Shown piece after piece: positions 304 through 55,500 of a stretch of DNA of 57,906 nucleotides. Location of the stretch: IMG/VR virus record IMGVR_UViG_3300020147_000010, positions 1 to 57,906 of that record; one strand, given 5' to 3'. Position 1 is the stretch's first letter. Each line of letters opens with the position of its first letter. The notes beneath the pieces are model-generated. The model searched no databases. It saw only the letters and a program-made list of their open reading frames with translations, and was not told where the DNA came from. The stretch is from a virus (taxonomy: Duplodnaviria; Caudoviricetes). Position numbers and translations under genes: made by a program.

Positions 304-1793
304 AGGCCCGTGACCAGGCCCTGGATGAGCTGGAGCCCGGCCTGGATGAGCTGGGGGATCAGCCCGATGATGCCGGTGATCAGCGTCGTGGCGAGCTGGA
401 CCACGGCCGGGAGGAGCGTCGGCAGGGCGTTGACGATGCCGGTCACCAGGCCGTTGATCAGCGCTCCGGCGGCCTCCACGATCCGGGGCGCGCTCGCCAC
501 CAGCGCGTTGACCAGGCCGGTCACCAGCGAGACCACGCCCTGGACGATCTGGGGGATGATCGTCGGGAGGGCGTTCGCCAGCCCAGTCACCATCTGGAGA
601 ATGGCGTCCGTGACTTGCTCGCGGAAAGCGAGGATGTTCTGGATGATCGTCGGGAGATTGGCCGCCAGGTACTGGAGGCCCTGGCTCACCAGGCGCTGGA
701 TCGCACCCACGGCCCAGTCGAATACCTCGCCCCACGAGGAGAACCCGGTGGCGAACTCCCGAATGGCGACATAGGTACGCGCGGACCAGGCGATGAACTC
801 GCCCAGCTTGCTGATGATGAACTGGATTCCGTCGAAGAAATCACCGAAGAAAACGGCCAGCTCGGGCGCGGCTCCGGCGATGTTGTCGAACATATTGCGG
901 AGCGCGCCGCCGGTCTCGCTCAGCCCGGTGGCGAACGCTTGCATGATCGGGCCACTGGACTGGACCAGGTTGACGAACCCCGGGAGGGCGTTCTCCACCA
1001 GGCCGACCACGCCACCGGTCAGGACCGCGATCTGGGGAGCCAGGCCCTCGAACATCTGCCGGAGCTGGGGCGCGATGCGTACGGCCAGCTTCTCGAACTC
1101 GCCCAGCGCGCTGACCAGCGGCTGGAGCATCGGCTGGGCGGCGGCCGTGAACTCCGACTTGATCGTGTCGGTCAGGCTCTTGGCCGCGTTCTTGAGGGCG
1201 CTCTCCTCCTTCAGGAGCGCCACGGCCAGGCCGATACCGGCGAACCCGATCCCGGCCGCGATGCCCGCACCGATCAGCGAGCCGATGGCCGGGACGGCCG
1301 CGCCAGCGATGGCCCCCGCGATGCCGAGGCCCACGCCCACCAGTGCCGGTCCGGCGATGGCCGGGATGCGGCCCAGGCCCGCCGTCAGCGCGTTGGCGAA
1401 CAGCGTTGCGGTATCGGTGCCGGTCCGGCCGAACAGGCCCGCCAGGAACCGGCGGATGCCGCTCTCGTCGGTGTTGCGCTGGAGCCCCCGGCCGATGGCC
1501 TTCCCGGCCTCGCGCCCGGCCGCGTCACCGGCGGCCCGCCCGGCGCGCTCGCCCATCGCCACGAACCGGCCGTTGGCGTCGCGGAGCTTGCCGTCCGCGC
1601 CAACGGTGATGCCCTCCCCGAGCTCGCGCCCGGCCTCCAGCCCGCCCTTGCGCACACCGTCCGAGTCAATCGGGACGTTGACGGGCGTGATGTCGATCCG
1701 TGACAGTGCACGGTCAAGGTCGCGTTCGGTCTGCCGGGCGAAGTTGCGTACGTCGCCCTCAACCTCAACCCTGGCCTTGCCCACATCGGTCAC
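1..1793 (-). CDS. Tape measure protein, N-terminal part (continues across the origin to 56448; ~982 aa total)
   Basis: GTG at 1793 (MTDVGKARVEVEGDVRNFARQTE...) is in frame with the 56448..57905 ORF through the overlap; long Ala/Gly/Ile-rich amphipathic repeats; lies between tail chaperones and minor tail genes. Confidence 0.92.
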   Translation of the reverse strand, partial: MTDVGKARVEVEGDVRNFARQTERDLDRALSRIDITPVNVPIDSDGVRKGGLEAGRELGEGITVGADGKLRDANGRFVAMGERAGRAAGDAAGREAGKAIGRGLQRNTDESGIRRFLAGLFGRTGTDTATLFANALTAGLGRIPAIAGPALVGVGLGIAGAIAGAAVPAIGSLIGAGIAAGIGFAGIGLAVALLKEESALKNAAKSLTDTIKSEFTAAAQPMLQPLVSALGEFEKLAVRIAPQLRQMFEGLAPQIAVLTGGVVGLVENALPGFVNLVQSSGPIMQAFATGLSETGGALRNMFDNIAGAAPELAVFFGDFFDGIQFIISKLGEFIAWSARTYVAIREFATGFSSWGEVFDWAVGAIQRLVSQGLQYLAANLPTIIQNILAFREQVTDAILQMVTGLANALPTIIPQIVQGVVSLVTGLVNALVASAPRIVEAAGALINGLVTGIVNALPTLLPAVVQLATTLITGIIGLIPQLIQAGLQLIQGLVTGLMTALPTIATALIQAIPQILSAFISAAPQLLLLGINIITAIIQGIGQALPQVVATIQGELIPTLLNTLATQGPALMQQGLNMIQQVMNGFIQNIGIITSTI

Positions 1794-1865
1794 GTGACCA
1801 GCCTACGGGGCTTGACAATGCCCCGTCATTCCGGTGCAAGGGGGCATCTCGCGTAGGATGGCCGG

Positions 1866-2294
1866 ATGGATGTCTCGCGCGCTCAGCTCTCGAACCTCGG
1901 GGACGAGGTGGTCCTGGAGGACCCTGGGTTCCCCTGGACGGTCCGAGTCCGGCTGTCCAAGGATGCGGACCGGCCGGTCGTCCTGAGCCTCGCTGTGGAG
2001 TCCAGGGACGGCCAGCCGGTCAGCTCCACCGTGCTGGCCCAGATCCCGGTCCGCCAGCTCGCCAGCGTGGCCGCCAGCGCCCTGAAGGGCGAGGGGGAGG
2101 CCCAGTACAGGATGCTGGCTCAGCCGCGCCCCAGGGGCTCTAGGAGCTGGCCGCCCGAGCACTACCGGAACGTCCACCGCGTGGCGGCCTGGGCACGCGC
2201 GACGGGCCGCCCCGGCGGCGCGGCTGGGGCTGTGGCGGAGTTTTGGGAGGTCCACTACCGGACGGCTCGGCGCTGGCTACGGGAGCCGGTTTAG
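1866..2294 (+). CDS. Putative DNA-binding protein with C-terminal HTH (DUF6214-like)
   Basis: C-terminal AVAEFWEVHYRTARRWL is HTH-like; TAGGAT -10 lies 6 nt before the ATG (leaderless); inserted antisense between chaperone and tape measure. Confidence 0.6.
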   Translation: MDVSRAQLSNLGDEVVLEDPGFPWTVRVRLSKDADRPVVLSLAVESRDGQPVSSTVLAQIPVRQLASVAASALKGEGEAQYRMLAQPRPRGSRSWPPEHYRNVHRVAAWARATGRPGGAAGAVAEFWEVHYRTARRWLREPV

Positions 2295-2832
2295 GCCGGG
2301 GTCCGGCCATCGCCTCGAACTCGCTCACCACGCGCTCGCTCGGGCGGCGCTTCTTGCCCGGCTGGGTCAGGCTCTCGTCCTCCAGCAGCGCCTCGAACTT
2401 GGCCTGGGTCTCCTCGTCCGGGAACCGGCTGGTGACCTCGGCGTAGATGGCGTCCAGCGCCGCGCCCAGCGGCGCGTCCTCCCAGCGGAACCCCCGGCGC
2501 ATCAGCGCGCCGTTGATGCTCGCCCAGTGCATGTTCGCCACCGAGGCCAGCACCACGCACACGTGGACCGAGCGTCCGGCGGCGGCCTCCAGGGCGTCCG
2601 TCAGCGCCGGGCCGAGCTCGGCCTGGTCCACCTCCCCGGACAGGAGGAGGTCGTCCAGGTTGAACGGGTCCTCCGGGCTTGACACTACAAAGTCAAGGAT
2701 CTCGGTCAGGTCGCCGGAGGTCAGCACCGGCCACCAGTCCACAGCCGAGAGGGCCGGAACGTCGTACGTCCGGCCCCCCAGCTCCAGCTCGATGGCCCAG
2801 CACCGCATCGACGCGAGCGGGTCCACCTCCAC
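2140..2832 (-). CDS. Tail assembly chaperone (second, pre-tape-measure)
   Basis: GTG start at 2832 (MEVDPLASMRCWAIELELGGRTYDVPA...); immediately upstream of tape measure on the same strand; low-complexity tail overlaps the + strand HTH gene. Confidence 0.6.
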   Translation of the reverse strand: MEVDPLASMRCWAIELELGGRTYDVPALSAVDWWPVLTSGDLTEILDFVVSSPEDPFNLDDLLLSGEVDQAELGPALTDALEAAAGRSVHVCVVLASVANMHWASINGALMRRGFRWEDAPLGAALDAIYAEVTSRFPDEETQAKFEALLEDESLTQPGKKRRPSERVVSEFEAMAGPRPKPAPVASAEPSGSGPPKTPPQPQPRRRGGPSRVPRPPRGGRSGSARAASS

Positions 2833-4618: not shown

Positions 4619-4783
4619 ATGAGTGACGACAAGATCACCAAGAAGCGTTCCGACCCGTACGGCCGTGACTGCCCGGCGGCCCAGCCGATGTGCCCGTGTG
4701 GCGCTCGCGGGTGCGCGCGAGCCGCCGAGCACGCGCGCACGATGGCCCCGGTGTCCACTCGCCGGTGGCGCTGGCGGCGCTGA
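4619..4783 (+). CDS. Small Cys-rich protein (54 aa), not in ORF track
   Basis: MSDDKITKKRSDPYGRDCPAAQPMCPCGARGC...; TAAGGT -10 just upstream (leaderless); fills the gap between two structural genes. Confidence 0.55.
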   Translation: MSDDKITKKRSDPYGRDCPAAQPMCPCGARGCARAAEHARTMAPVSTRRWRWRR

Positions 4784-4807
4784 CACTCCAGCGTCAACGG
4801 GGCCGGG

Positions 4808-6241: not shown

Positions 6242-6255
6242 TTGACTGTTCAGTG

Positions 6256-6432
6256 TCAGGCGGGTCGATCCCGCTTGTGGATGTCGTTGGCCTGGCGGCG
6301 CATCACACCCGCGATGTCCGGGTCAGCGGACACGGCCCGGTCCTTCTCGTTCTGGGTGGCCGTGTCCTCGCTCCGGGTCCTGGGGTTGTCCTTGCCCGTG
6401 TTGCGGCCCTTGTTCCCGCCCTTGTTACCCAC
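6256..6432 (-). CDS. Small hydrophilic protein (58 aa), not in ORF track
   Basis: MGNKGGNKGRNTGKDNPRTRSED...; directly follows 6436..6621. Confidence 0.55.
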   Translation of the reverse strand: MGNKGGNKGRNTGKDNPRTRSEDTATQNEKDRAVSADPDIAGVMRRQANDIHKRDRPA

Positions 6433-7396: not shown

Positions 7397-8208
7397 TACG
7401 AACCCACCTCCTCCAGAGGATCGAACTCCGCGCGGCCCGCGAAGCACTCGAACGCCACCGCGTACGTCCGCTCGGCCACCATCGTGACCTCGTTCGTCGG
7501 ACGCTCGAAAGCGTTGTAGACATCGACATCCGGCGCGCGCCAGACGGCGGTCTGGCCGGTCACGATGACCTCGCCAGACGGGTACGCGCCGAACACCCAG
7601 ATGGAGCCCATCGGGGTGACCTTGCGGTTCCCGTCCGGGATGACCAGACCGGCCTCGGCCGCGAACGCGGCGACCTCCACCGGCGCGTGGATGTAGGCCA
7701 CGCCCCCGTACTGGTTCTCCGTGTAGGCGAACCGCTCCAGCGCGCCCACCACGTCCGTGATCAGGCCCGGGTCATACCCGGCCGGGATCGCTGACGCTTC
7801 ACTGTCAAGCGACTGGATGCCGAGCGCGTTCCCCTCCAGGTCCAGGCCGGTCCAGAGAGCCCGCTCCACGGCGGCCATCTCCGAGCCCTCCAGACGCCGG
7901 AGGACCGCCTGGCGGTTCTCCTCGTCCGTGTAGCCCACCGCGCCACAGTTCAGCGTGGCGAGCACCGCGAACGAGCCCGAGGCCACCTCGTCGCCCCGGC
8001 CGTCCAGCGGCTTGTCCGGGGACGCCACCTCGCCGCCGTAGCAGTTGATGCCGTAGGCGTACGCCTCGCCGCACACGGGGACGAACTTGACGCCCCCGCC
8101 CTCCCCGTGCGTGGGGAGGTCGATCGGCCCGCTGGCCGCGTCGAACAGGCCGTACCGTCGCCGGAGCCGTTCCGGAGCCGGAACGCTCAGGCCAGGGATG
8201 ATTGCCAT
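7396..8208 (-). CDS. Second capsid protein (probable major capsid pentamer protein)
   Basis: RRYGLFDAA, VERALW, TPMGSIWVFGAY, NEVTMVAERTYAVAFEC; directly after the large capsid gene, as in cluster-B-like actinophages. Confidence 0.7.
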   Translation of the reverse strand: MAIIPGLSVPAPERLRRRYGLFDAASGPIDLPTHGEGGGVKFVPVCGEAYAYGINCYGGEVASPDKPLDGRGDEVASGSFAVLATLNCGAVGYTDEENRQAVLRRLEGSEMAAVERALWTGLDLEGNALGIQSLDSEASAIPAGYDPGLITDVVGALERFAYTENQYGGVAYIHAPVEVAAFAAEAGLVIPDGNRKVTPMGSIWVFGAYPSGEVIVTGQTAVWRAPDVDVYNAFERPTNEVTMVAERTYAVAFECFAGRAEFDPLEEVGS

Positions 8209-9988: not shown

Positions 9989-10119
9989 GTGGTCCGTCCT
10001 TCAGTCGGTCGGTGGTGCCTGATCGACTCCCCGCCGGACCGAATCCTGACACTGGGATGTCAAGCGCGATCGTAGCACCGGCGCGGACAACCTGGTCCGG
10101 ATGTCCTCTCCCCAGGGTG

Positions 10120-10148
10120 TTGACACTCCACAGTCATGGCTGTAATGT
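10120..10148 (+). promoter_or_regulatory. Sigma70/HrdB-like early promoter overlapped by a TGAC-N8-GTCA site
   Basis: TTGACA-N17-TAATGT. Confidence 0.8.
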
Positions 10149-12622: not shown

Positions 12623-12890
12623 CCCGCTCCCCCCGCTGTGCGGCCCGTGCTCGGCGGAGAGCGCGCGCTGGCTGGACACCCGGCCGAGCGTGCTCCTCCC
12701 CCGGGCCGGGTTCGCCCACGGCTCCGGCGCGGCGTACGACGTGAGCCCGGCCGGGCTCCGGGACAACGGCCGGGCGCGGCACGCCGAGTGGGCGGCCACG
12801 GTGCGCTTCCAGCGGCGGCTCGTGGCCGAGGGATGCCGGGCCGGGCGGCACGCCAGCCCCCGTGTTGACACTTCACAGTCAACGCTGTAA
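12615..12890 (+). CDS. Hypothetical protein
   Basis: Overlaps upstream stop; CGPC...C..GRH. Confidence 0.6.
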   Translation: MSDPLPPLCGPCSAESARWLDTRPSVLLPRAGFAHGSGAAYDVSPAGLRDNGRARHAEWAATVRFQRRLVAEGCRAGRHASPRVDTSQSTL

Positions 12891-12893
12891 TGT
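12865..12893 (+). promoter_or_regulatory. Early promoter with TGAC-N8-GTCA site
   Basis: TTGACA-N17-TAATGT, near-identical to the 10120 promoter. Confidence 0.8.
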
Positions 12894-13152: not shown

Positions 13153-13157
13153 GAGAC

Positions 13158-39186: not shown

Positions 39187-39189
39187 CTG

Positions 39190-40506: not shown

Positions 40507-40621
40507 GTCTCTCCCCTTCCAGGTGGCGGGACCTCTCCCACCGTCCATTACATTACCGTCATGCCTACAAAGTGTCAAGCCCGGTCCCCCGGGGAGGGGG
40601 ACCGGGCCGGAGCCCGGCCGC

Positions 40622-42297: not shown

Positions 42298-42401
42298 ACA
42301 TTACAGGCATGACTGTGGAGTGTCAACGCCAGGAGGCCCGTTGTGGTCTACGTCACAGGCGGGCCTGTGAGGTTGACACTTCACTGTCACGCCTGTAATG
42401 T
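42298..42401. promoter_or_regulatory. Divergent pair of early promoters, each overlapped by a TGAC-N8-GTCA site
   Basis: Minus strand TTGACA-N17-TAATGT 42326-42298; plus strand TTGACA-N17-TAATGT 42373-42401. Confidence 0.8.
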
Positions 42402-42748: not shown

Positions 42749-43021
42749 TCAGATGGCCGCGCCCACCAGGTCGGTACGCGCGCCCTGGCCGGGCCGGTTC
42801 TCCTTCCACCGGTCCAGGCTCTCCCGGGTGAACACCGGGAGTAGGTACTGGCCGTCCGCCTCGCGCTCCGGCTCGGCCTCGGGGCCGATGCCGCGCGCCA
42901 CGTAGCTGGAGAGCGTGTTCCGCTTCAGGCCCAGGTACGCGGCGGCCGGGCCGTAGCCCACGAACCGGTCCGGCGTCTCGGTCTCCTGGCTTTCCACGGT
43001 CTCGCCTCCTCTCGTAGTCAT
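42749..43021 (-). CDS. HTH DNA-binding protein (AlpA/excisionase/MerR-like)
   Basis: AAAYLGLKRNTLSSYVARG..P.P, F....LDRW..NRPGQGARTDL; TATAGT -10 upstream. Confidence 0.8.
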   Translation of the reverse strand: MTTRGGETVESQETETPDRFVGYGPAAAYLGLKRNTLSSYVARGIGPEAEPEREADGQYLLPVFTRESLDRWKENRPGQGARTDLVGAAI

Positions 43022-43083: not shown

Positions 43084-43112
43084 TTGACACTTCACAGTCA
43101 CGCCTGTAATGT
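43084..43112 (+). promoter_or_regulatory. Early promoter with TGAC-N8-GTCA site
   Basis: TTGACA-N17-TAATGT. Confidence 0.8.
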
Positions 43113-43709: not shown

Positions 43710-43738
43710 TTGACACTTCACAGTCAGGGCTGTAACGT
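43710..43738 (+). promoter_or_regulatory. Promoter firing antisense into the late membrane-gene pair
   Basis: TTGACA-N17-TAACGT with TGAC-N8-GTCA site. Confidence 0.65.
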
Positions 43739-45116: not shown

Positions 45117-46903
45117 CGGCCGTCCTTCAGGGCCTGGATGATCTCGCCCTTCTTGTCCTTGCGCGCGCCCAGGACGATCCCCCGGCGCTTGGCGAGCTCG
45201 CGGAGCTGGTCCACCTTCAGCTCCCCGATCGGCTGGCCCGGCCGGGAGTCCTCCAGGAACAGCGACTCCTCCAGCGAGACCACCTCGCGGCGCGGCTCCG
45301 GCCGCTCCTTGACCGGCTCGGGCTCGGTGACCACCGGCGGCTGGACCGGCTCCGGGTCGCTTGACGTGTCAGTGTCAACGACCACCGGCACCGGCTCCGG
45401 GTCGGCGGCGGGCTGGTCCACCGGCGTGCCGGGGCCTTCCGCCACCTGGCCCGGCGCGGCCGGGTACGGGGAGGGAGAGACGCCCTCCCCGGTGATGGCC
45501 GTGGGCGGCTCGGCCGGAGCCGGGGCGCTGTCCGGCGTGACGGCCGGAGCGGCTGGGGTCTCGGGCTCGCCCTTCAGCCGGGTGACGGCCAGCCGATCGT
45601 GGTAGATCACGACCGGCTCCAGGAACCCCTCGTCCACGAGCTCGTCCACGGCCAGGCGTACGCCGCACCAGTCCGGGTGCCCGTAGTCGTCCACCGCGAT
45701 GCGAGCGCCCGGGGCGAGGTGCGGAGCCCACGCCTCGATGTCCCGGCGCGCGCCCTCCTTGGTGTGGTCGCCGTCCACGTACAGGAGGCCCACCTTGGGG
45801 CCGCCCCAGCGCGCGGCCACGTTGTGCGAGAAGTCCTGGACCAGCGTGATGCTGGTGGAGTAGCCCAGGCTCTGGACCCAGTGCTGAGCCCACCGGCGGC
45901 TGGCGTCCTCGGTGAACGGCGGATCGTAGACGTTGCCCGGGAGCTCCCAGGGGTCGATGCCGGTCACGTGCGCGCCGTGGCCCTGGCGAGCGCCCCAGGC
46001 CATCATCAGCGCGGAGCGGCCCTGGAACACGCCGAGCTCCACGATCTCCTGGTCCGCCGGGACCTGGGTGGCGAAGTCGGCCAGGGCCAACATGACGTTC
46101 TCAGGGGTGGCCGCGCGCACGCGCTTGAAGAACCTCGGGTAGCGCATCATCTCTCCTCGTCGGTTGCCCGGCCGGATCGGCCGGGGTGCCCTCTCGTCGG
46201 CCCGACCGGCGCGGAGCTGGCGGACCACGGCCGCCTGGCTCGGGAGCTCCAGCCGTTGCCAGCGCTCGTACGCGGCCCGGTCCTTGGCGAACTGGCTCCG
46301 GTGGTTCACGCGCTGGTACTGCTCGTCCGTGGCGGCCTTCCCGGCCACCGGGTGCATGTGCTCTATCCGCACCTCGGGGAGGTGTCGGAGCGCTCCGGCG
46401 GCCGTGAACAGGTCCATCATCGCGTTGTCGCAATACATATGCTCCACCGGAGCGGGCACCATCCGGCCGAGGGCGCGCACCACGTCCGAGGTGATGGCCC
46501 ACTCGGTGCTCAGCTTGCGGCCCTGGTAGCCGTCGTCCCCGTAGACCATCCCGGTCCCGAGCTCGGCCAGCACGTCCAGGTAGCGCCTGGCCCAGCCGAT
46601 CGTCTGGGGGAGGTGGTCGTCACCGGCGAACGCCAGCGCCCGGTACCGACCGGCCGCCTCCCGGGCCGCCGCGTCCAGCTTGTGGACCATCGGGAGCCAG
46701 GCCGGGATCACCACGAGCTGGGCCGGGAGGCCGTCGTCCTCGGCCACGATCGACCGGTACGCGCCGATCTCGGGGTCGTCGGCGTCCGCCACCACGATCA
46801 TGTCCGCGTGGTCCCAGGCGTTGGTGAAGTCCCACGCGCCGATCACCCGGCGGATGTTCTCGGGGCGGCCCCGGGTCGGGATCAGGACGGCCAGGTCAGG
46901 CAT
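45113..46903 (-). CDS. GT2 glycosyltransferase - SAM-dependent methyltransferase - Pro-rich linker - Rho-N/HeH-like fusion
   Basis: VLIPTRGRP, FAGDDHLP, HMYCDN, EHMHP; IVELGVFQGRS, LLYVDGDHT, AVDDY; C-terminal LKVDQLRELAKRRGI...KKGEIIQAL. Confidence 0.85.
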   Translation of the reverse strand: MPDLAVLIPTRGRPENIRRVIGAWDFTNAWDHADMIVVADADDPEIGAYRSIVAEDDGLPAQLVVIPAWLPMVHKLDAAAREAAGRYRALAFAGDDHLPQTIGWARRYLDVLAELGTGMVYGDDGYQGRKLSTEWAITSDVVRALGRMVPAPVEHMYCDNAMMDLFTAAGALRHLPEVRIEHMHPVAGKAATDEQYQRVNHRSQFAKDRAAYERWQRLELPSQAAVVRQLRAGRADERAPRPIRPGNRRGEMMRYPRFFKRVRAATPENVMLALADFATQVPADQEIVELGVFQGRSALMMAWGARQGHGAHVTGIDPWELPGNVYDPPFTEDASRRWAQHWVQSLGYSTSITLVQDFSHNVAARWGGPKVGLLYVDGDHTKEGARRDIEAWAPHLAPGARIAVDDYGHPDWCGVRLAVDELVDEGFLEPVVIYHDRLAVTRLKGEPETPAAPAVTPDSAPAPAEPPTAITGEGVSPSPYPAAPGQVAEGPGTPVDQPAADPEPVPVVVDTDTSSDPEPVQPPVVTEPEPVKERPEPRREVVSLEESLFLEDSRPGQPIGELKVDQLRELAKRRGIVLGARKDKKGEIIQALKDGR

Positions 46904-48629: not shown

Positions 48630-49702
48630 CAGAGCTCCCGGACCTGGAGGCTGGTGTCCCCGGCCAGGTCCAGCGTCACGGCGTCCACCGCGAGCGCCTG
48701 GCCCTCCAGGCTCACCACGTCCCCGGCGGAGATCGTGGGGTCGTACGGCCGGACCAGGGTGTAGGTCGCGCCAGCGCCCACGTTCTGGTTCAGGATCGTG
48801 TTGGCGGCGGCCTGGGCGGCGGCCACGGTCTTGATCAGCGGGGAGGAGAAGAACTCCGTTACGCGGCCGTACGGGCTGGTGCCCGGCCCGGTCCCGGCGT
48901 AGGTCGGGCTTGACGGATCACTGTCAATCGCCACGGCCTGGACCGGCGCGGTCCCGTCCTGGGCCTCGCCGCGCGCCACGATGACGTTGGGCGGCCGGGT
49001 GTCGTAGTCGGCGGACAAGCTGGTGAGCTGGTCCAGCGGGTACGCCGTGGCCGCGTCCGGCGTCAGCGTGCCGATCTGGATGTCCCCCACGCGGTTGTAC
49101 CAGGCCGTCCGGCTGAACCCGGCCAGCACGTCCAGGATCTCCGACCACGGGGCCGTGCCGGGGTCCAGGCCGAACACCCGGGCCGCGCCGAGCGCCACGC
49201 CCACGAGGCCCACGCCGGGGTTCTGGCCGGTGCGGTTGGTGACCACCGCGTTGATCATGTTCCCCAGGTCGGTCCCGCTCGCCACGGTCAGCGCGGTCTC
49301 GAACCGGTAGCGCTCCACGTTGTCGCTGATGTCGATCAGGCCCACGTCCACCACGCGCTGACCGGCCTCGGTCCGGGTGCGCGCCGAGGCCACCTCGTAG
49401 GTGCCGTAGGGCACGGTCGCCAGCGAGCCGTCCAGGAGCTCCAGGCCCAGCTCCACCTCCAGCCGCGTCCCGAATGGCGTCAGGAGGTCGCCCGGCCGCC
49501 GGGGGAGGAGCGAGTCCCCCACGAACGAGAGGCGGCCGTCCCAGCGCGCGTTCCGCCGGGCGTCCTGGGTGAGCGAGCCGCTGACCGGCTCCAGCTCGCG
49601 CGTGACGCCACCGCGCGAGAAGGTGAACCGAGACCAGCGCCGGAACCCGGTGGGCGTGCTGAGGGCCGCCTGGTGGCGCGCCGAGTTGAACCTGGTAGCC
49701 AT
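48629..49702 (-). CDS. Minor tail / baseplate hub protein (DUF5047-like)
   Basis: LLTPFGTRL, NVIVARGE, DSDPSSPTYAG..PYGRV..FFSSPLI. Confidence 0.8.
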   Translation of the reverse strand: MATRFNSARHQAALSTPTGFRRWSRFTFSRGGVTRELEPVSGSLTQDARRNARWDGRLSFVGDSLLPRRPGDLLTPFGTRLEVELGLELLDGSLATVPYGTYEVASARTRTEAGQRVVDVGLIDISDNVERYRFETALTVASGTDLGNMINAVVTNRTGQNPGVGLVGVALGAARVFGLDPGTAPWSEILDVLAGFSRTAWYNRVGDIQIGTLTPDAATAYPLDQLTSLSADYDTRPPNVIVARGEAQDGTAPVQAVAIDSDPSSPTYAGTGPGTSPYGRVTEFFSSPLIKTVAAAQAAANTILNQNVGAGATYTLVRPYDPTISAGDVVSLEGQALAVDAVTLDLAGDTSLQVREL

Positions 49703-52512
49703 TACAGGTACTCCTCCGGGTCGGGCGTCTCAGGCCAGGGCTGACGGACCATCGTCACCTGAACCACCTTCACGTTCGGGGCCGGGGCCGCCACGCGCCA
49801 GCCGCCCGGCGCGTACCAGCCCGGCTCGCCGCCGACCGGCGACCAGTAGACCCGCTCGCTGGACAGGATGCTCTCCAGCCGGTTGATGGCCTTCACGCCC
49901 TCCACCGCGATGGTCAGCGTCATGTCCTCCCCGGCCAGCGTGGTGGAGACCGAGGGGAGCCCGCCGTCCAGCGGGATGCTGTCCGAGACCAGCCGGGGGA
50001 AGGTGTGAGACCGGTCGGTGGTGACGGCCATCCGGTCGGTGAAGGTGCTCAGCCGGTCCAGGTCGTCCCCGTGGGTCAGGCTCGGCACCGTGGCGCTGGC
50101 GAAGTCCGAGACCTTGAGCTCCGGCACGGGGAGCGGGCCGCCGGAGATCGTGCCGTCCAGTCGGACGAAATGCACCTCCCGATACGGCGGGATGTGGCTC
50201 ACGCTGTTGGTGTTGCCGGAGCCGTTCGAGCTGACGCCGGGGGAAGCGCTCGCCGTGCTCCCCCCGCTGTGGTCGTGGGTGGTCGTGGGCGAGTCGCCCA
50301 GGTCACCGAACGAGGGCCGCTCGAACGAGCCCGTGGTGGACTGGCCCACGTCGATGGTGTGGCTGTGGTTGCCGATGTCGTGGGTGTGCGCCGGGGTCGT
50401 GTGGGAGTGGCTGGAGGTCCCCCCGGTGCTGTTCACCGAGTCGGAGCCCTTCTCCCTGGCGAACCAGGTCCGCATGTCCGGCGTGCCGTTCGCGCCGTTG
50501 CACAACGTCAGGAGCGGGTCCAGGTCGGCCACCGCACCGGTGTAGAGCCCGATGATCCGGGTCTGGGTGCCGCCACCGGTGTTCCGGAGGACCCTCAGCC
50601 GCCGGTTGGGCGGCTCCAAGTTGACCGCGTTCGTGGTCCCCCCGCCCACGCTGTTGGTGTTGCCGGTGCTGGCCGGGGCCACGTTCAGCGGGTGGGTGTG
50701 CCGGGGGAGCCAGCGCGGGGAGCTGGAGCCGTACCCGGCCTCGGTGCCGGAGCTCGGGTTCGAGAGCGAGGTGGAGCCGATGCTGTGGTCGTGGCTCACG
50801 CCGTTGTGGCTGTGCGCGTTGACGGTGTGCGAGTGGGTGGCCGCGCCGGAGGTCGCGCCGCCGTTGCCGCCCGAGGGCGCGCCCTTCAGGAACCGGCCCG
50901 CCGAGCTCGCGTCGTCGGTCCAGCCGGACACGCTCTCGGTCGAGAACCCGAGGATGCCGACCGGGTACGCGGCCTGAGCGCCGTCCGACTTGATCCAGAT
51001 CACGTCCCGAGCCGGGGGCGCGTTGTTGGCCGCGCTCGTGCCGGGAGCGGAGCTGGAGGTGTTGTACGGCCCGGCGCTCCCGGTGGAGCTCGGCCGGGTG
51101 TGCGTGTGCGGCTGGTCGGCCTGGGGCTGGCTCGCGCCGTTGAACCGCGCCGAGGTGGTGGAGCTGTTCGAGCTCCCCGTGGAGCCGCCCACGCTGTGGC
51201 TGTGGGCCGCGATCTGGTGCGTGTGGCCGGGCGTGGTGTGGCTGTGGCTGGCCGCGCCGCCGGTGGCGACCGGCGCGCCGGTGCCGTTGCTGCCTCGGGG
51301 GAACACGCCGTCCAGCGCGGTGACTCGCGTCCAGCCGGACGGGATGCTGGCGGCCGTGCCCGGCCAGCCCAGGATCATGTCATCCGGGATGGTGTCGGGG
51401 AGCTCCACGAACGTCGAGACGTAGCCCTGGTAGCGCACCCGGTACGTGATGTCGCACGGCTCGCTTGACACTTCACAGTCAGGACCGCTCGGGAGCGGGT
51501 CGAGCTGGGGGATCGCCAGGTCCAGGTACGAGCCGTTCAGCCCATCCGGCACGGTGGCGATGCGCTGGGAGCCGGTGCAATCGTCGCGCCAGACCTCGGC
51601 CACCACGTAGTCGTTGTCCCACGCCTGGCCGCCCGGGTACTCCCAGGTGACCCGGTAGCCGCCGAACTCCGGCGTCACGGTGACCAGGGGAGGGGACGGC
51701 GGGGGGACCGTGTTCTGGACGCTGAACGTCCGGGTCAGGCCGTGCTCGAACGGGTCGGAGCCCCGGATGGTGGAGCGGACCATGAACTGGGCCGTGTACG
51801 CCCCGTCGTCCAGGCCGGTGTCCATCGGCAGGGTGGCCGGGGGCGTGCCGGAGCCGGACTGGGTGAACACCGGCGCGTTGCCCGCGTCGTAGACGGTGAC
51901 GGACCAGTTCAGCGCCGGGAGCCCGTCGTAGGCCACCGCGCCGAACGCGAGGACCGGCTGGTTGGTGTCGGTGATCGTGCCGCCGGTCTGGTCCACCCCG
52001 GCGTTGTCCTGGACCTCGGGGTCGTACTGGGGCCGGAGCCGACAGTCGATGTCCACGTAGCACTCGGCCGTACGGAGCTCGGTCGGCGCGCCGGTCTCGA
52101 TGCTCGGCCAGCCGCCGCCGATGTTCAGGTCCGAGAGCGCTCCGGCCGTCGCCAGCCCGTAGTCCGAGGTCTGGTACCACTCCCCGGCCCGCTCGGTCAT
52201 GGTGTCGGTGACATCCACCGAGTCATATTCGATGTAGTCCTGGGTGCCGCGCCCCAGGTCGATGTCCTCGGTGGCCGTGCCCACGTCGGTCCGGATGCGG
52301 ATGCGACCCCTGATCCGGTGGCGCTGGTACCCGGCGGCCGGGGTGTGCGGCTCCAGCCGCAACGACCAGTTGCCGGAGTTGCCGGTCAGGAACCGGATGT
52401 AGGTCGAATCGGAGTTGTCCGAGGTGACCCCGGCCAGGGTGCCGGACGGGACGGCGGTCCCCAGCCCCGCCTTGAGCACCGAGACCGGTCGGAGAACGTT
52501 GGTCACAGCCAT
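49702..52512 (-). CDS. Large minor tail protein with three tandem collar/HxH repeats
   Basis: Three ~130-aa units, each with four HxH motifs; paralogous to 52545..56432. Confidence 0.85.
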   Translation of the reverse strand: MAVTNVLRPVSVLKAGLGTAVPSGTLAGVTSDNSDSTYIRFLTGNSGNWSLRLEPHTPAAGYQRHRIRGRIRIRTDVGTATEDIDLGRGTQDYIEYDSVDVTDTMTERAGEWYQTSDYGLATAGALSDLNIGGGWPSIETGAPTELRTAECYVDIDCRLRPQYDPEVQDNAGVDQTGGTITDTNQPVLAFGAVAYDGLPALNWSVTVYDAGNAPVFTQSGSGTPPATLPMDTGLDDGAYTAQFMVRSTIRGSDPFEHGLTRTFSVQNTVPPPSPPLVTVTPEFGGYRVTWEYPGGQAWDNDYVVAEVWRDDCTGSQRIATVPDGLNGSYLDLAIPQLDPLPSGPDCEVSSEPCDITYRVRYQGYVSTFVELPDTIPDDMILGWPGTAASIPSGWTRVTALDGVFPRGSNGTGAPVATGGAASHSHTTPGHTHQIAAHSHSVGGSTGSSNSSTTSARFNGASQPQADQPHTHTRPSSTGSAGPYNTSSSAPGTSAANNAPPARDVIWIKSDGAQAAYPVGILGFSTESVSGWTDDASSAGRFLKGAPSGGNGGATSGAATHSHTVNAHSHNGVSHDHSIGSTSLSNPSSGTEAGYGSSSPRWLPRHTHPLNVAPASTGNTNSVGGGTTNAVNLEPPNRRLRVLRNTGGGTQTRIIGLYTGAVADLDPLLTLCNGANGTPDMRTWFAREKGSDSVNSTGGTSSHSHTTPAHTHDIGNHSHTIDVGQSTTGSFERPSFGDLGDSPTTTHDHSGGSTASASPGVSSNGSGNTNSVSHIPPYREVHFVRLDGTISGGPLPVPELKVSDFASATVPSLTHGDDLDRLSTFTDRMAVTTDRSHTFPRLVSDSIPLDGGLPSVSTTLAGEDMTLTIAVEGVKAINRLESILSSERVYWSPVGGEPGWYAPGGWRVAAPAPNVKVVQVTMVRQPWPETPDPEEYL

Positions 52513-52544
52513 ACTGTCACCCTATCCTGGGCTCGGAGGACATC

Positions 52545-55500
52545 TCAGACCCCCACGTCCGCGAGCTGGGGAGCGGGCTCCGGGCCGGTCCCGATGAACG
52601 TCGCGGTGACCTGGCGGATGCGGCCCACCTTGACGATCCGGACGCTCTCGGTCACCGGCGCGGCCCAGACCTCCTCGGCGTCGCTCGGGCTGATCAGGAC
52701 CAGCGGCCGGGCGAGCACCGCGCGGAGCCGGGCCAGCTCGGCCTCGCTCTCCACGGCGGCCGTCATGCTCAGGTTCCGGCCGCCCGGGTCGGCGCTGGTG
52801 ACGAACCGCGAGCCCATCACGCCGGTGGCCGCCGTGAACGGCCGCTCCACGGCCCACTCGAACCGGCCGAGCACCGGAGCCCAGAGCGGGCCGTCCGGCC
52901 CGGTGGTCCGGATCAGGTGCTGGTCCTCGTCCCAGGTGAGGCAGAACAGGTCCGGGTCCGGCGGCGGAGTGGGCTCCTCCACGAGCTGGACGAACGCCAC
53001 CTCCTCGTACGGCGGCTCGGTCGTGGTGCTCGCCAGCGTCCCCGAGGTGGACTGGCCCACCGGCGGAGTGGCGTTGTCCGTGCTGCCAGCGCTGTGGGTG
53101 TGCGTGCCGGTCACGATCGTGACGGCCGCCGTGTTGCTCAGCGCGGCCGTGGGCGCGGCGGCGGAGCCGATGGTCTCGGTGTGGTTGTGCGTCCCCGTCG
53201 TGTGGTTGTGCTCGGGGCTGGTGTGCGTGTGCGGGTCCAGCGAGCCGCCGCTGGTGTTCACGGCCGCCGCGTCGGTGGTCACCCGGGGGTACCGGCCGAA
53301 CATATCCGGCGTCCCCTCGGTGCCGTCGCACAGCTTCCAGCCGTCCGGCACCGAGCCGATGGAGCCGCGCCAGAGGCAGATCAGGCCCACGGGGAGCGAG
53401 ACCCCGGCCGAGACGTTCTCCCGGAGCCGGAGCTGGCGGAACGGGGGGTTGAGCTGGCCGCTGGCCCCCGAGGTGCCAGCGCCGCCGGAGTTGAGGGCCG
53501 CCGTGGTGGACGTGCCCACGCTGATCGGGTGGCTGTGCGAGGTCGCCCACATGCCGGTGGTCGGACCGGCGAACACGGACCGGTTGCTGGCGAACGAACC
53601 GGTGTTCGGGCTGGTGTGCGTGTGGCTCGTCCCCGTGTGGGTGTGCGCGTCGATGGCGTGGGTGTGAGCCGCCACCGCGCTGGCCGCCGTGGTGCCGCCG
53701 TTGCCGCCGGGGGCCGCGCCCTTCAGGAACCGGCCGCCAGCATTCGCCAGCGCCGAGTCCGCCCAGCCTGACAGCTCAATGTCAAGGCTCAGCGCCGCCG
53801 CGCCGGGCGGCACGCCGAGGGGAGAGCCGTCCGACTCCACGAAAATGACCTCAGCGCGCGCCGGGTCGTTGCTGGCCGAGCCCACGCCGGGCGTGGTCGC
53901 ACCGCTGGCGACCGTGGCCGAGTTGGTGGGCGGCCGGGTGTGCGTGTGGGTGTTCAGCGCCACGGTGGTGCCCACCACGCCGTCCGAGGAGCTGAACGTG
54001 CCGGTGGCCGCACCGGTCGCGCCGGTGACGGTGTGGCTGTGGCTGATGTCGTGGGTGTGGCTCGGGAGCGTGTGCGTGTGCGTCGCCGCGCCGCCGGTGG
54101 TGCCCGGCTGAACGGCGGAGCTCGGGATGCCCTTGGGGTAGCGGCCGTCCAGCGCCGTGGTCCGGGTCCAGCCCGCCGGGATGCTGGCGTTCGTCCCCGG
54201 CCAGGCGATGATCAGGCCCGCCGGGACGCCCGGGTCGTACACGTCCGACCAGTCCGAGATCCGGAGGTCCCCGTCCACCCGGCCCACGGTGCGCGCCCGG
54301 TAGTACGAACAGCACTGCTCGGCCGGGTGGTCGCACGTCGCGCCCACGCCGGTCCGGGGGAGCGTGTAGTCCGTCCACGTGGCGCACTCATCGGACGCCA
54401 GCGGGCCGAGCATCGCCACGGTGTGCGTGGAGGTGGGCGAGTAGATCCGGCCGCCGCTGGCGACGCTCCAGGCGTTGCCCTGGGCGTCCTCGAACGTCGT
54501 CGTCCCGTCCAGGTGGTTGGTGAAGTCGGGCGAGAGCATGACCTGGCCGTCCGGCGCGTTGCGGAACTCGGCCGAGTAGATCCGGCCGGTCCACCGGTTC
54601 AGCGGGCCGGAGCCGCCCATGTACGCGCCCACGTAGTACGCGGCCGAGGAGTTGAACAGCGGCCGGGGCGCGCCGCCGGTCAGGGCCTCCCCGATCGGCC
54701 GCCAGTCGTCGTCCTCGGTGTCGCGCGTCGCGTACTCCACGCGCCACGCGCCGCCCTGGTCCGCCCAGAACCGGGTCCGGACCCAGGCGTTGCCGAACGG
54801 GTCCACCGGGACCGGCTCGGTGCTGATGGCGAACTCCAGCGCGCTGGTGCCGTCCTGGCTCCAGCCGAGCACCAGGCGGCCCCGGTCGTCCAGTGCCAGC
54901 CGCCAGGCGCGCTGGTCCGAGACGGTGCTGTAGTGGCTCGCCAGGGTGTCCTCGTCCCCCGGCTCCGGCCGCCAGCCGTCGTCCCGCCCGGCCTGGATGA
55001 CCACCTCCAGGTCCACCGGGGAGGTGATCTCCTCGAACGTGACCTGGGTGACGTAGACCTGGGTACCGTCCGGGCCGATGATCGTCGGGCCGTAGTTGCC
55101 GTAGGCCACGTCCACCGGGGCCACGCCCTCGGCCTCGTACTTGGTCCAGACCCCGGCGGCCAGCGCCGCGCCCGGCGTGTAGACGCCCCCGATGTAGTCC
55201 ACCCCGGCGTTGAACCAGTCGATGGCCGCCGTGACGCTGGCGATGGGCACCGGCGCGTACAGCCAGAAGGTGGTCCGGTAGGTCCGGCCCGCCACGACCT
55301 CGGCGGAGTTGAGCACGCCATCCGGCCGGACGTAGGTCTGGGCCGCGCCGCCGGTGACGGTGAGCAGCGCGGAGCCGTGGCCCTCGTGCTCCTGGGCGTC
55401 GCTGTGCACCAGCGAGCCGCCGGTGGGAGCCCAGCCTGACACTGACGTGTCAAAGTCCCCGGACACCCGGGCGCGCGAGATCGCCAGCTCGGGAGCCGGG

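What the first reader, a model, noticed from the sequence alone, without database searches (positions are those of the whole stretch)
1701..55452. Genome-wide lattice of TTGACA-N6-TGTCAA-type palindromes, including inside coding genes
Seen: at least 31 exact TGAC-N8-GTCA 16-mers (positions in features) plus about 6 one-mismatch copies. A rough base-composition estimate at ~72% GC predicts fewer than one by chance. About a quarter of the exact copies, and most near-matches, sit on the -35 box of strong early promoters. Many others lie deep in coding sequence: tape measure 1701, chaperone 2680, capsid pentamer 7792, MuF 15474, primase-polymerase 31343 and 33047, glycosyltransferase 45362, tail genes 48911, 51466, 53769, 55437. 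There they often use A/T-ending codons that are rare in this genome. Two straddle start codons (36078, 39177). Counting near-matches, no gap around the circle exceeds about 4 kb. Known analogues are the L5/Bxb1 stoperators (asymmetric) and the phiC31 conserved inverted repeats, both from temperate phages with a repressor; here I see no integrase or cI-like gene. Inference: a dimeric protein coats the chromosome at regular intervals. Possible roles are early-promoter shut-off with roadblocks, genome organisation, or self-marking against a nuclease or defence system. Each half-site is essentially a sigma70 -35 hexamer and often contains GACAC, the actinobacterial WhiA motif, so a host factor is also possible.
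Basis: partly seen in the sequence, partly recalled or inferred. Interest (0 to 1): 0.92.

Follow-up and report, generated by a model that had tools for sequence, protein, structure and literature searches.

The report
Phage-wide lattice of conserved dyad sites
A soil phage related to Actinoplanes phage phiAsp2 carries about 30 copies of one short two-fold symmetric DNA site, on its early promoters, at gene borders and written into genes with rare codons, which looks like a genome-wide docking pattern for a still unidentified DNA-binding protein.

Summary
The window has 32 exact TGAC-N8-GTCA sites against 1.04 expected. Intragenic copies number 16 against 0.50 in synonymous-codon shuffles. Only the 8-bp spacer is enriched.

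The window is a 98%-complete phiAsp2-like phage. PhiAsp2 and ten other complete relatives carry 8-36 copies each; four related genomes carry 1-3.

Cores are conserved at orthologous places in 38-76% of alignable cases, against 13-25% background. Intragenic copies use rare codons: 13 of the 20 TCA codons in the genome lie in sites.

Eight sites cover the -35 hexamer and spacer of sigma70-type promoters. The rest lie at stop or start codons, between genes, or in one reading frame inside long genes.

Sites show no orientation bias and are spaced more evenly than chance. Two Actinoplanes chromosomes are almost free of the site. No integrase, ParB or XRE repressor was found.

Best reading: operators of a phage-encoded dimeric regulator. 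The binder is not identified. The closest published parallel is the unexplained 17-bp palindrome of Cluster O mycobacteriophages.

The parts
1701..1716 (.). dyad inside g1 (3..1793 -, tail/tape-measure homologue of phiAsp2 pas27), frame xxT GAC..xxG TCA
   Evidence: core conserved in 4 of 5 alignable relatives
1813..1828 (.). dyad between divergent g1 and g2
   Evidence: core conserved in 0 of 5 at the exact place; phiAsp2 has a dyad 11 bp away
2680..2695 (.). dyad inside g3 (2140..2832 -), same frame
   Evidence: core conserved in 6 of 6 relatives, while only 3-7 of the 8 inner bases match
4781..4796 (.). dyad at the g9/g8 border (inside the called N-terminus of g8)
   Evidence: 0 of 1 aligned
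6243..6258 (.). dyad whose last three bases are the TGA stop of g11
   Evidence: 2 of 2 conserved
7792..7807 (.). dyad inside g14 (phrog_779), same frame
   Evidence: 1 of 5 conserved
10047..10062 (.). intergenic dyad 59 bp upstream of capsid gene g15 and beside promoter P10120
   Evidence: 5 of 6 conserved
10120..10148 (+). type-1 promoter TTGACAC-N17-TAATGT holding dyad 10121-10136; drives reverse block g16-g20
   Evidence: dyad conserved in 6 of 6
12865..12893 (+). type-1 promoter holding dyad 12866-12881; drives g21-g22
   Evidence: 1 of 1 conserved
15474..15489 (.). dyad inside MuF-like gene g24, same frame
   Evidence: 6 of 6 conserved
18456..18471 (.). dyad whose last three bases are the stop of g28
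   Evidence: 1 of 2 conserved
22889..22904 (.). intergenic dyad with a -35 but no -10 match, followed by a hairpin
   Evidence: not alignable
24729..24744 (.). dyad holding the stop of g39
   Evidence: 2 of 2 conserved
25960..25975 (.). dyad holding the stop of large terminase gene g42
   Evidence: 4 of 4 conserved
28378..28393 (.). intergenic dyad between g44 and g43
   Evidence: 2 of 4 conserved
31343..31358 (.). dyad in the Pro/Glu-rich linker of primase-polymerase/PolA gene g45
   Evidence: 1 of 2 conserved
33047..33062 (.). dyad inside g45, same frame; relatives encode the same residues with common codons
   Evidence: 0 of 6 conserved
35689..35717 (-). promoter upstream of helicase g47, holding dyad 35701-35716
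   Evidence: 0 of 2 conserved
36078..36093 (.). dyad covering the ATG of g48
   Evidence: 2 of 4 conserved
39177..39192 (.). dyad covering the stop of g54 and the start of RuvC-like g53
   Evidence: 1 of 2 conserved
41418..41446 (-). type-1 promoter holding dyad 41430-41445, embedded in the long ORF 40622..42256; drives g57C
   Evidence: 1 of 1 conserved
41453..41468 (.). second dyad 7 bp upstream of the former one; the only tandem pair in the window
42298..42326 (-). type-1 promoter holding dyad 42310-42325
   Evidence: 3 of 3 conserved
42373..42401 (+). type-1 promoter holding dyad 42374-42389; drives g58
   Evidence: 4 of 4 conserved
43084..43112 (+). type-1 promoter holding dyad 43085-43100; drives g60
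   Evidence: 3 of 3 conserved
43710..43738 (+). type-1 promoter holding dyad 43711-43726; points antisense into g61 and the late operon
   Evidence: 3 of 3 conserved
45362..45377 (.). dyad in a linker of methyltransferase-domain gene g63
   Evidence: not alignable
48911..48926 (.). dyad inside tail gene g67; three relatives encode the same DxDPSS with common codons and have no site
   Evidence: 3 of 6 conserved
49742..49757 (.). match in the other reading frame inside g68; possibly a chance copy
   Evidence: 0 of 6 conserved
51466..51481 (.). dyad inside tail gene g68; all 16 bases identical in 4 relatives
   Evidence: core conserved in 5 of 6
53769..53784 (.). dyad inside g69
   Evidence: 4 of 5 conserved
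55437..55452 (.). dyad inside g69
   Evidence: 1 of 1 conserved
21091..21119 (-). type-2 promoter: same -35 and -10, right half-site degenerate
22136..22164 (-). type-2 promoter (one-mismatch dyad 22148); its -10 lies 8 nt from the ATG of g33
25910..25938 (-). type-2 promoter (one-mismatch dyad 25922)
40550..40578 (-). type-2 promoter (one-mismatch dyad 40562)
42749..43021 (-). g59, 90-aa AlpA/excisionase-type winged HTH; the only recognisable DNA-binding protein; weak binder candidate
   Evidence: HTH_17 E 6.9e-05; phrog_597 E 6.8e-17; its own promoter TTGTCA-N18-TATAGT has no dyad (read); HTH invariant also in motif-poor G008
40622..41380 (-). g57C, 252 aa with HExxH and a CxC..CxxC zinc ribbon; the only gene whose presence tracks the lattice

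Best explanation
The TTGACA(C/G)T-N-A(C/G)TGTCAA dyads are binding sites for a dimeric, sequence-specific DNA-binding protein, most likely encoded by the phage.

At eight promoters one half-site is the -35 hexamer and the other lies in the 17-bp spacer. A bound dimer must therefore exclude RNA polymerase, which makes the site a shut-off or repression operator. Seven of the eight are 'type-1' promoters. Five of those drive the reverse-oriented gene islands and an antisense transcript, and two drive the first early genes.

The other roughly 24 sites are extra operators. Selection keeps them at gene borders and inside long genes, so that almost the whole genome lies within about 2 kb of a site. 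I infer that they act without regard to orientation. They could be roadblocks, or anchors for cooperative, long-range silencing of stray or antisense transcription, either after the early phase or in a dormant carrier state.

Shown: the enrichment, the selection on the DNA sequence, the promoter register, and the near-absence of the site from host chromosomes. Inferred: binding, the identity of the binder, repression, and the role of the dispersed sites.
For: Enrichment: 32 observed against 1.04 expected. Intragenic: 16 against 0.50, with 0 of 2000 synonymous-codon shuffles reaching 16. Only spacer N8 is enriched.

Half-site profile from 374 half-sites in 7 genomes: T at -1 in 236, A5 in 221, C6 in 152 and G6 in 154, T7 in 288. 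Specific bases are conserved, not mere complementarity, which points to protein-DNA contact and away from RNA structure.

Promoters: all 12 TTGAC-N(17-19)-TAnnnT matches have TTGACAC and a 17-bp spacer, against 0.39 expected. Eight hold the full dyad in one register.

Conservation of all 8 core bases at orthologous places: 19/25, 13/20, 10/18, 8/11, 5/13 and 16/22, against backgrounds of 0.25, 0.21, 0.14, 0.13, 0.14 and 0.17. Inner bases often differ.

Codons: relatives lacking a site encode the same residues with common codons. 13 of the 20 TCA Ser codons lie in sites, and 49.5% of site codons end in A/T against 5.3% genome-wide.

Family-wide: 8-36 sites in 12 complete genomes, with the reversed-pattern control at 0-1.

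Host chromosomes: TTGAC-N8-GTCAA occurs 2 and 1 times in two 11.3-Mb Actinoplanes genomes. TGACAST-N5-GTCA occurs 4 times in each, and 2 of each 4 lie in phage-like islands.

Spacing: maximum gap 4433 bp against a simulated median of 7010 bp, P = 0.009; phiAsp2 P = 0.005.
Against: No binder was identified.
- The only recognisable DNA-binding protein, g59, has an HTH that is also invariant in G008, which has 3 dyads (two of them on promoters), and it is 69% identical in G009, which has 1.
- The only gene that tracks the lattice, g57C, looks like a zinc protease, not a transcription factor. It is also missing from the syntenic interval of partial genome G010, which still has 7 dyads.

The ancestral promoter of the wider group, TTGACAC-N7-G[GC]CA, is one substitution from the dyad. 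Part of the promoter overlap could therefore be inherited rather than regulatory.

A roadblock that ignores orientation would also hinder the phage's own late transcription.

Spacing evenness is not significant in G002 (P = 0.12) or G004 (P = 0.22), and the genomes are not independent tests.

No expression or binding data exist; the public runs found are soil metagenome contigs.
Confidence: 0.5

Rival explanations
1. The sites bind a protein, but their main role is not transcriptional. They could organise or serve the DNA itself, as loading or recognition points for the primase-polymerase replication module, for compaction, or for packaging. The promoter overlap would then be a legacy of the promoter-like half-site.
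For: Even, Okazaki-sized spacing. Two-fold symmetry and no orientation bias: 32 against 33, with 26 ties. Sites are forced into long genes and linkers with rare codons. All 11 complete motif-rich relatives carry the g45-g50 replication module, and the three complete motif-poor genomes lack it. An integrated Actinoplanes island shares only the primase-polymerase half of g45 (55% identity) and g14 with the phage, and has 3 dyads in 7.4 kb. The authors of the Cluster O study argued that their palindrome is not a transcription-initiation element (PMC4351075, passage).
Against: G009 has the g45-g50 module (63-82% identity) but 1 dyad in 35 kb, and G017 has it with only 8. 103 of 292 sites in 12 genomes sit on promoters in one fixed register. 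No ParB_N domain was found. No sequence-specific domain is known in g45.
Confidence: 0.2
2. A host protein binds the sites, for example a developmental regulator, WhiA, or the sigma region 4 of RNA polymerase. The phage would use it to tie its programme to host physiology, as phi29 does with Spo0A boxes (recalled, not checked here).
For: Each half-site contains the -35 hexamer TTGACA. 24 of 64 half-sites begin TGACAC, which contains GACAC. No convincing phage-encoded binder was found.
Against: Two Actinoplanes genomes hold essentially no dyads outside phage-like islands. The exact 17-mer occurs as single copies in only 16 stretches of the 596-Gbp genome collection, against 88 stretches, many with several copies, in viral contigs. 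Closely related phages with the same promoters lack the lattice.
Confidence: 0.07
3. No dedicated binder exists. The sites are promoter-derived repeats that persist as substrates for homologous or illegitimate recombination, acting as module linkers for mosaic exchange.
For: Sites are about twice as frequent within 100 bp of homology breaks as random points: 9, 9, 11 and 15 of 32, against 4.5-5.7 expected (P = 0.029, 0.054, 0.011, 0.0002). Soil-metagenome contigs from two runs join 10174 to 13178, a 3-kb deletion between two directly repeated type-1 promoters.
Against: Homology breaks fall in intergenic and linker DNA anyway, so the enrichment is confounded. Intragenic sites such as 2680, 15474 and 51466 sit inside well-aligned genes and keep only the 8 outer bases, which is too short for homologous recombination. 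Strict N8 spacing with variable inner bases fits protein recognition.
Confidence: 0.08
4. The sites mark self DNA or act as decoys in a conflict with a host or phage nuclease or defence system. The bipartite 4-N8-4 form resembles a symmetric Type I restriction target.
For: The bipartite architecture. Even coverage of the genome. Near-absence from host chromosomes.
Against: Phages normally lose restriction targets rather than gain them. The only methyltransferase domain found is a Methyltransf_24 domain in a gene flanked by glycosyltransferases. The fixed promoter register remains unexplained.
Confidence: 0.05

Closest known systems
17-bp palindromic repeat of Cluster O mycobacteriophages (TGTTCGGNNNCCGAACA; PMC4351075, abstract and passages read)
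   Same: More than 30 dyad-symmetric copies spread over an actinophage genome of similar size. About one third lie within coding regions. There is no meaningful orientation. The site is absent from the host genome. The phages have no integrase or parAB and are not obviously temperate. The function and the binder are unknown.
   Different: The sequence and geometry differ: 7-N3-7 there, 4(5)-N8-4(5) here. Only 4 of 34 Corndog sites are near promoters, whereas 8 of 32 here, and 103 of 292 in 12 genomes, form part of the promoter in one register. The phage family is unrelated. Rare-codon, orthologous-conservation and spacing evidence is given here; I did not see it in the passages I read.
Repressor-stoperator systems of Cluster A mycobacteriophages (L5, Bxb1). 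Seen: the start of the abstract of PMC9283540 in the listing, and passages of PMC6550527
   Same: Tens of copies of an operator are spread over the genome. One class overlaps an early lytic promoter. Many lie at gene borders.
   Different: Stoperators are 13-bp, asymmetric, bound by a monomeric repressor, and predominantly in one orientation relative to transcription. Those phages are temperate, with integrase or parABS. Here the site is a dyad with no orientation bias, many copies lie deep inside genes, and no integrase, ParB or XRE repressor was found.
Repressor-stoperator system of Streptomyces phage R4 and the phiScoe phages (passage of PMC10276819)
   Same: An actinomycete phage whose repressor acts at an early promoter and at many further sites.
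   Different: Those phages are temperate with serine integrases, and their sites are reported in intergenic regions. The site lists are in supplements that I could not see.
phiC31 conserved inverted repeats, P1 C1 operators and RK2 KorB operators
   Same: A single regulator has a dozen or more dispersed, partly palindromic operators, some at promoters and some far from them.
   Different: These belong to temperate phages or a plasmid with a known regulator. No ParB_N domain is present here. I know of no reports there of copies forced into essential genes by rare codons.

Membership tests
Cluster A-type repressor-stoperator system | Asymmetric site of about 13 bp | tested here: not met
   The site is a 16-18 bp dyad. 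Both outer tetramers are invariant by definition, and the half-site profile is symmetric.
Cluster A-type repressor-stoperator system | Sites predominantly in one orientation relative to transcription | tested here: not met
   Of 91 intragenic sites in 12 genomes, the stronger half lies upstream in 32 and downstream in 33, with 26 ties.
Cluster A-type repressor-stoperator system | A copy overlaps the early lytic promoter | tested here: met
   8 of 32 sites span the -35 and spacer of TTGACAC-N17-TAnnnT promoters.
Cluster A-type repressor-stoperator system | Temperate phage with integrase or parABS and an immunity repressor gene | tested here: not met
   Six-frame searches in 5 genomes each found 0 of 5 matches for PF00589, PF00239, PF02195 and PF01381. 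The Cluster A Rep family itself was not searched.
Cluster O-type dispersed palindromic repeat | More than about 30 dyad-symmetric copies throughout a non-temperate actinophage genome, about one third in coding regions | tested here: met
   32 copies, 12 of them clearly intragenic. No lysogeny genes were found.
Cluster O-type dispersed palindromic repeat | Site absent from the host genome | tested here: met
   Two Actinoplanes genomes are nearly free of the site. The true host of the window is unknown.
Cluster O-type dispersed palindromic repeat | The same repeat sequence and homologous phages | tested here: not met
   The motif is different. The nearest named relative is Actinoplanes phage phiAsp2.
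ParB/KorB-type clamp with dispersed palindromic loading sites | A ParB N-terminal domain protein is encoded | tested here: not met
   PF02195 matched 0 of 5 genomes.
Type I restriction-modification target | Bipartite target together with a cognate specificity/methylase system, and avoidance of the target in phage genomes | tested here: not met
   The site is enriched about 30-fold rather than avoided. Only a Methyltransf_24 domain was found. HsdS/HsdM families were not searched by name.
RNA structural element | Pairing kept by covariation; match to a described family | tested here: not met
   The outer bases are invariant rather than covarying. The window has no Rfam match at gathering score.

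The most novel reading that the evidence does not exclude
A lineage of apparently non-temperate actinophages has built an evenly spaced, genome-wide grid of operator dyads. The copies were created in place inside essential genes by synonymous changes to rare codons. A still unknown phage protein uses this grid to silence or organise the whole chromosome, as a symmetric, lytic-phage counterpart of stoperators. The code appears to be shared with small integrated islands in Actinoplanes chromosomes. One island carries a serine recombinase, an XRE regulator and a primase-polymerase, and it carries the same dyads, so it may listen to the phage's regulator as a satellite would.
Probability: 0.25. 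Interest if true: 0.8.

Novelty: new variant of a known kind. Interest (0 to 1): 0.62.

Why it matters
Dispersed operator-like repeats in phages that are not obviously temperate have been an open puzzle since the Cluster O report.

This lineage offers a cleaner case for three reasons. There is a cultured member (phiAsp2) and many metagenomic relatives with graded site numbers, from 1 to 36. The promoter link is fixed in register. And the sequence itself shows selection on the DNA, through rare codons and orthologous conservation.

That makes the question of what such lattices do directly testable by pull-down, transcript mapping and synonymous recoding.

It also cautions annotators that strongly conserved synonymous positions in phage structural genes can be DNA signals. 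Finally, the conserved strong promoters may be useful parts for Actinoplanes genetics.

Tried and rejected
Binder hunt. Pfam, PHROGs and NCBIfam scans covered about 60 of my 70 called proteins. They gave only one DNA-binding domain protein, g59. No small protein is universal among the motif-rich genomes; g58 occurs in 5 of 11.

Presence/absence table of window genes over 16 relatives. Only g57C tracks the lattice. It is a clade marker, so this is weak evidence, and it is missing from the syntenic interval of partial genome G010. Its fold model has mean pLDDT 77.1. The best Foldseek match is a minigluzincin peptidase at E 0.14, and a profile search of PDB sequences found nothing below E 0.77.

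g59 homodimer job: no verdict. I do not count it either way.

Co-occurrence of g59 homologues with the motif. It follows phage relatedness. G008, G009, L164 and L165 break it.

A scan of the motif-poor relatives for another enriched palindrome found none.

A prophage search with the exact 17-mer in 596 Gbp of genomes found single copies only.

Rfam found nothing.

Sequencing runs were soil metagenome contigs only, with one RNA run holding a small share. Laying four DNA runs printed about 40 of roughly 880 differences, so I could not test for SNP depletion at dyads.

Literature. Searches for phiAsp2/Actinoplanes, stoperator(s) and Actinoplanes/Micromonospora phage(s) found no paper describing this motif. 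The primary phiAsp2 genome paper (Jarling et al. 2004, Virus Genes; recalled) is not in the library, so I cannot say whether it mentions the promoters or repeats. The GenBank feature table lists only CDS, RBS and translational-coupling features. Supplements were closed; the stoperator site lists in them might refine the comparison.

Full report
WHAT THE WINDOW IS. The window is a single IMG/VR virus record of 57,906 bp, rated 98% complete, with 70-73% G+C throughout. Its nearest named relative is Actinoplanes phage phiAsp2 (58,638 bp). The two are collinear at about 77-80% nucleotide identity. The window is the reverse complement of the phiAsp2 record and is circularly permuted relative to it. 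I called 70 genes from third-position G+C. Most lie on the minus strand, with a few reverse-oriented islands: g2, g16-g22, g58 and g60.

THE OBSERVATION. TGAC-N8-GTCA occurs 32 times, against 1.04 +/- 0.92 in dinucleotide shuffles; 0 of 100 shuffles reach 32.
- The effect is specific to the 8-bp spacer: 32 for N8, against 0-3 for spacers of 0-14. It is also specific to this tetramer; the other 23 permutations give 0-13.
- Copies with one mismatch (16) are no more frequent than chance. Four of them have motif-like inner bases, and three of those lie on promoters.
- In synonymous-codon shuffles that keep every protein and each gene's codon usage, intragenic matches average 0.50 +/- 0.63, against 16 observed; 0 of 2000 shuffles reach 16. 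Four of the 16 lie in ORF calls that are too long. Twelve are clearly intragenic.

THE MOTIF. Pooling 374 half-sites from seven genomes gives c-T-TGAC-A-(C/G)-T-(G/T). The full site is therefore an 18-bp dyad, TTGACAsT..AsTGTCAA. In the window both flanking bases are present in 8 sites, one in 21 and none in 3. The four outer bases of each half are invariant by definition and the inner ones are only preferred. Specific bases are kept, rather than complementary pairs, which argues for recognition of duplex DNA by a two-fold symmetric protein and against an RNA hairpin. Rfam finds nothing in the window.

THREE CLASSES OF SITE.

(a) Promoter sites. The window has exactly 12 matches to TTGAC-N(17-19)-TAnnnT, against 0.39 in shuffles. 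All 12 read TTGACAC and all have a 17-bp spacer.
- Eight contain a full dyad in one register, with the left half-site equal to the -35 hexamer and the right half-site in the spacer.
- Seven of these share the form TTGACACTTCACAGTCA-nnnCTG-TAATGT ('type 1'). Five of the seven point against the main direction of transcription and drive the reverse islands and an antisense transcript. The other two drive the first genes of the early region.
- Four further promoters ('type 2') drive lysis-side and other minus-strand genes. They keep the -35 and -10 elements but have a degenerate right half.
- The eighth dyad promoter, P35689 upstream of the helicase and polymerase genes, has type-2 inner bases with a full right half.

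(b) Border sites. Four sites use their own TGA as the stop codon of the upstream gene (6243, 18456, 24729, 25960). Two cover start codons (36078, 39177). Five lie in intergenic DNA or beside a promoter.

(c) Intragenic sites. Eleven lie in the frame xxT-GAC-xxx-xxx-xxG-TCA, inside the tail/tape-measure gene, g3, g14, the MuF-like gene, the primase-polymerase/PolA gene (two sites), the methyltransferase-domain gene and three tail genes. One more (49742) is in the other frame, is not conserved, and may be a chance copy.

Across 12 genomes the 292 sites split into 103 promoter, 98 border or intergenic, and 91 intragenic sites. Of the 91 intragenic sites, 80 are in that one frame (the gene calls there are crude).

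SELECTION ACTS ON THE DNA.
- At orthologous positions, all eight core bases are identical in 19/25 (phiAsp2), 13/20, 10/18, 8/11, 5/13 and 16/22 alignable cases. The same 4+4 pattern at arbitrary aligned positions is identical in a fraction of 0.25, 0.21, 0.14, 0.13, 0.14 and 0.17.
- Sites 2680 and 15474 keep the core in all six relatives, while only 3-7 of the 8 inner bases match.
- Codon alignments show that relatives lacking a site encode the same residues with common codons. At 48911, for example, the window has ATT GAC AGT GAT CCG TCA where a relative has ATG GAC ACC GAC CCC TCC.
- TCA makes up 20 of 913 serine codons, and 13 of those 20 lie in sites. A/T-ending codons are 5.3% of all codons but 49.5% of codons inside sites.
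- Two sites lie in Pro/Glu-rich linkers of large proteins, as if placed where the protein tolerates them.

DISTRIBUTION AMONG RELATIVES. The exact 17-mer occurs in 88 stretches of IMG/VR contigs.
- Complete relatives carry 36 (phiAsp2), 30, 29, 28, 28, 24, 23, 21, 17, 16 and 8 dyads, with the reversed-pattern control at 0-1.
- Related genomes G008, G011 and G012 (all complete) and G009 (partial) carry 3, 2, 1 and 1. Partial G010 carries 7 in 34 kb.
- These motif-poor genomes use the same promoter design, TTGACAC-N7-G(G/C)CA-YGnCTG-TAAnGT. The dyad is therefore one substitution from an ancestral promoter, and the dispersed lattice is a derived feature of the phiAsp2 subgroup.

SPACING AND ORIENTATION.
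- The largest gap in the window is 4433 bp, against a simulated median maximum of 7010 bp (P = 0.009). The corresponding P values are 0.005 for phiAsp2, 0.013 for G001, 0.026 for G005, 0.036 for G003, 0.12 for G002 and 0.22 for G004.
- These genomes share sites, so they are not independent tests. Regularly spaced gene borders may also contribute.
- Intragenic sites show no orientation preference: 32 against 33, with 26 ties.

HOST OR PHAGE FACTOR.
- In two 11.3-Mb Actinoplanes genomes the strict palindrome TGACAST-NN-ASTGTCA is absent.
- TTGAC-N8-GTCAA occurs 2 and 1 times.
- TGACAST-N5-GTCA occurs 4 times in each genome, and half of those copies lie in phage-like islands.
- In the 596-Gbp genome collection the 17-mer occurs only as 16 single copies.

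A host regulon built on this site is therefore unlikely. The window's own host is unknown.

LIFESTYLE. Six-frame searches of the window and four relatives found no tyrosine integrase, no serine recombinase, no ParB N-terminal domain and no XRE-type HTH. No multi-copy prophage was seen in bacterial genomes. By gene content these phages are not temperate.

WHO BINDS. This remains unsolved.
- g59 (90 aa) is an AlpA/excisionase-type winged HTH: HTH_17 at E 6.9e-05 and phrog_597 at E 6.8e-17, with weak similarity to RdfS at E 0.066. It lies in the middle of the type-1 promoter cluster. From the sequence I read that it has its own leaderless promoter, TTGTCA-N18-TATAGT, without a dyad. That is what one expects of a regulator that stays on while its targets are shut off.
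- However, its HTH and its C-terminal RPGQGARTDL motif are invariant across 25 homologues, including the one from motif-poor G008. G009 has a 69% identical copy and one dyad. If g59 binds the dyad, it does so in genomes that keep it only on promoters; two of the four promoter matches in G008 do carry full dyads. It could equally read another conserved promoter element.
- g57C is the only gene present in all 11 complete motif-rich relatives and absent from the four motif-poor ones. The only tandem dyad pair in the window sits at its promoter. But it carries an invariant HExxH and a CxC..CxxC ribbon, and its model resembles a small zinc peptidase only weakly. It may be a protease partner rather than the binder. 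The association is confounded by shared ancestry, and the gene is missing from the syntenic interval of G010.
- The replication module g45-g50 also tracks the lattice, except in G009.

MECHANISM. What follows from the anatomy is this. A dimer on a type-1 promoter occupies the -35 hexamer and the spacer, so it must compete with RNA polymerase. This class is therefore best read as a repression or shut-off operator. The role of the dispersed sites is inferred. They are symmetric, orientation-free, evenly spread and kept at a cost to codon usage. That fits extra operators used as roadblocks against read-through and antisense transcription, or as anchors for cooperative silencing. It fits almost as well a role in handling the DNA itself, which is the second-ranked reading.

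Weaker alternatives are recombination linkers, a host factor and defence-related marking.
- Sites are about twice as frequent within 100 bp of homology breaks as random points.
- Soil-metagenome contigs show a 3-kb deletion between two repeated type-1 promoters.
- Both effects are confounded by the intergenic location of many sites.

COMPARISON WITH KNOWN SYSTEMS. The nearest published case is the 17-bp palindrome of Cluster O mycobacteriophages. It has 34 copies, about one third of them in genes, no orientation, is absent from the host, occurs in phages that are not temperate, and has no known function (PMC4351075). Here the motif, its geometry and the phage family differ, and a quarter to a third of the copies are built into promoters. 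Cluster A and R4 stoperators share the idea of dispersed operators plus a promoter operator. They are asymmetric, oriented, bound by a monomer, and belong to temperate phages; two of their defining features were tested here and not met. I therefore rate this a new variant of a known kind, of good but not exceptional interest. The phenomenon is real and well supported, and it can be studied experimentally through phiAsp2. Its function remains open.

Paper supplements were closed. The primary phiAsp2 paper is not in the library. No binding or expression data were available.

Noticed in passing
G006:C4 about 172,000-186,200 (loci L133-L135, L124): Integrated island in an Actinoplanes chromosome. 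It holds a large serine recombinase (469 aa), an XRE-type HTH protein (397 aa), a homologue of the primase-polymerase half of g45 (55% over 743 aa) and a homologue of g14 (62%). It has three dyads in 7.4 kb, while the rest of the 11.3-Mb genome has almost none. It may be a satellite or integrative element that shares the phage's site.
   Followed up: partly
G007:C30 29,878-29,947 (L117, L136): Two dyads 54 bp apart in a second Actinoplanes genome, in a stretch that also holds a homologue of the endolysin g36 (47% over 150 aa). The 8 bases flanking one dyad are identical to those in the G006 island.
   Followed up: partly
window 40622-42256 (-): One open frame of 544 codons runs through promoter P41418, its dyads, a Shine-Dalgarno sequence and the ATG of g57C. 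In many relatives gene callers report fused proteins of 400-440 aa, in which the promoter DNA is translated as LTL(N/H)SQ..KV. It is unclear whether a fusion protein is made in addition to g57C.
   Followed up: partly
window 42749-43083 (-): g59 (AlpA-like) has an invariant HTH and an invariant C-terminal RPGQGARTDL motif across 25 homologues. Its leaderless promoter TTGTCA-N18-TATAGT shares GCCTGTA with the other promoters. It might read the conserved spacer/-10 region of the whole promoter family.
   Followed up: partly
window promoters listed in parts; G008-G012: The whole wider phage group shares an unusually long promoter consensus, TTGACAC-N7-G(G/C/T)CA-YGnCTG-TAAnGT, with a fixed 17-bp spacer. 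This is far more conserved than sigma70 recognition alone requires.
   Followed up: partly
window 43710-44100: Type-1 promoter P43710 points antisense into g61 and the end of the late operon. The arrangement is conserved in phiAsp2, G001 and G005.
   Followed up: no
window 10120-13178: Soil-metagenome contigs from two runs join 10174 to 13178, skipping 3003 bp. Contigs from three runs join 12622 back to 10120. These are natural variants that differ by recombination between the two directly repeated type-1 promoters.
   Followed up: no
window 44094-44372 (-): A stretch conserved in 10 of 11 motif-rich relatives, with weak third-position G+C. It probably encodes a small hydrophobic protein of 92 aa that my gene caller missed.
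   Followed up: partly
window 22128-22164 and 40548-40578: The -10 hexamers of P22136 and P40550 lie 8 and 2 nt from the called start codons. This suggests leaderless transcripts or wrongly called starts.
   Followed up: no
whole window: GATC-N8-GATC occurs 13 times, the second most frequent pattern of its kind after the dyad.
   Followed up: no
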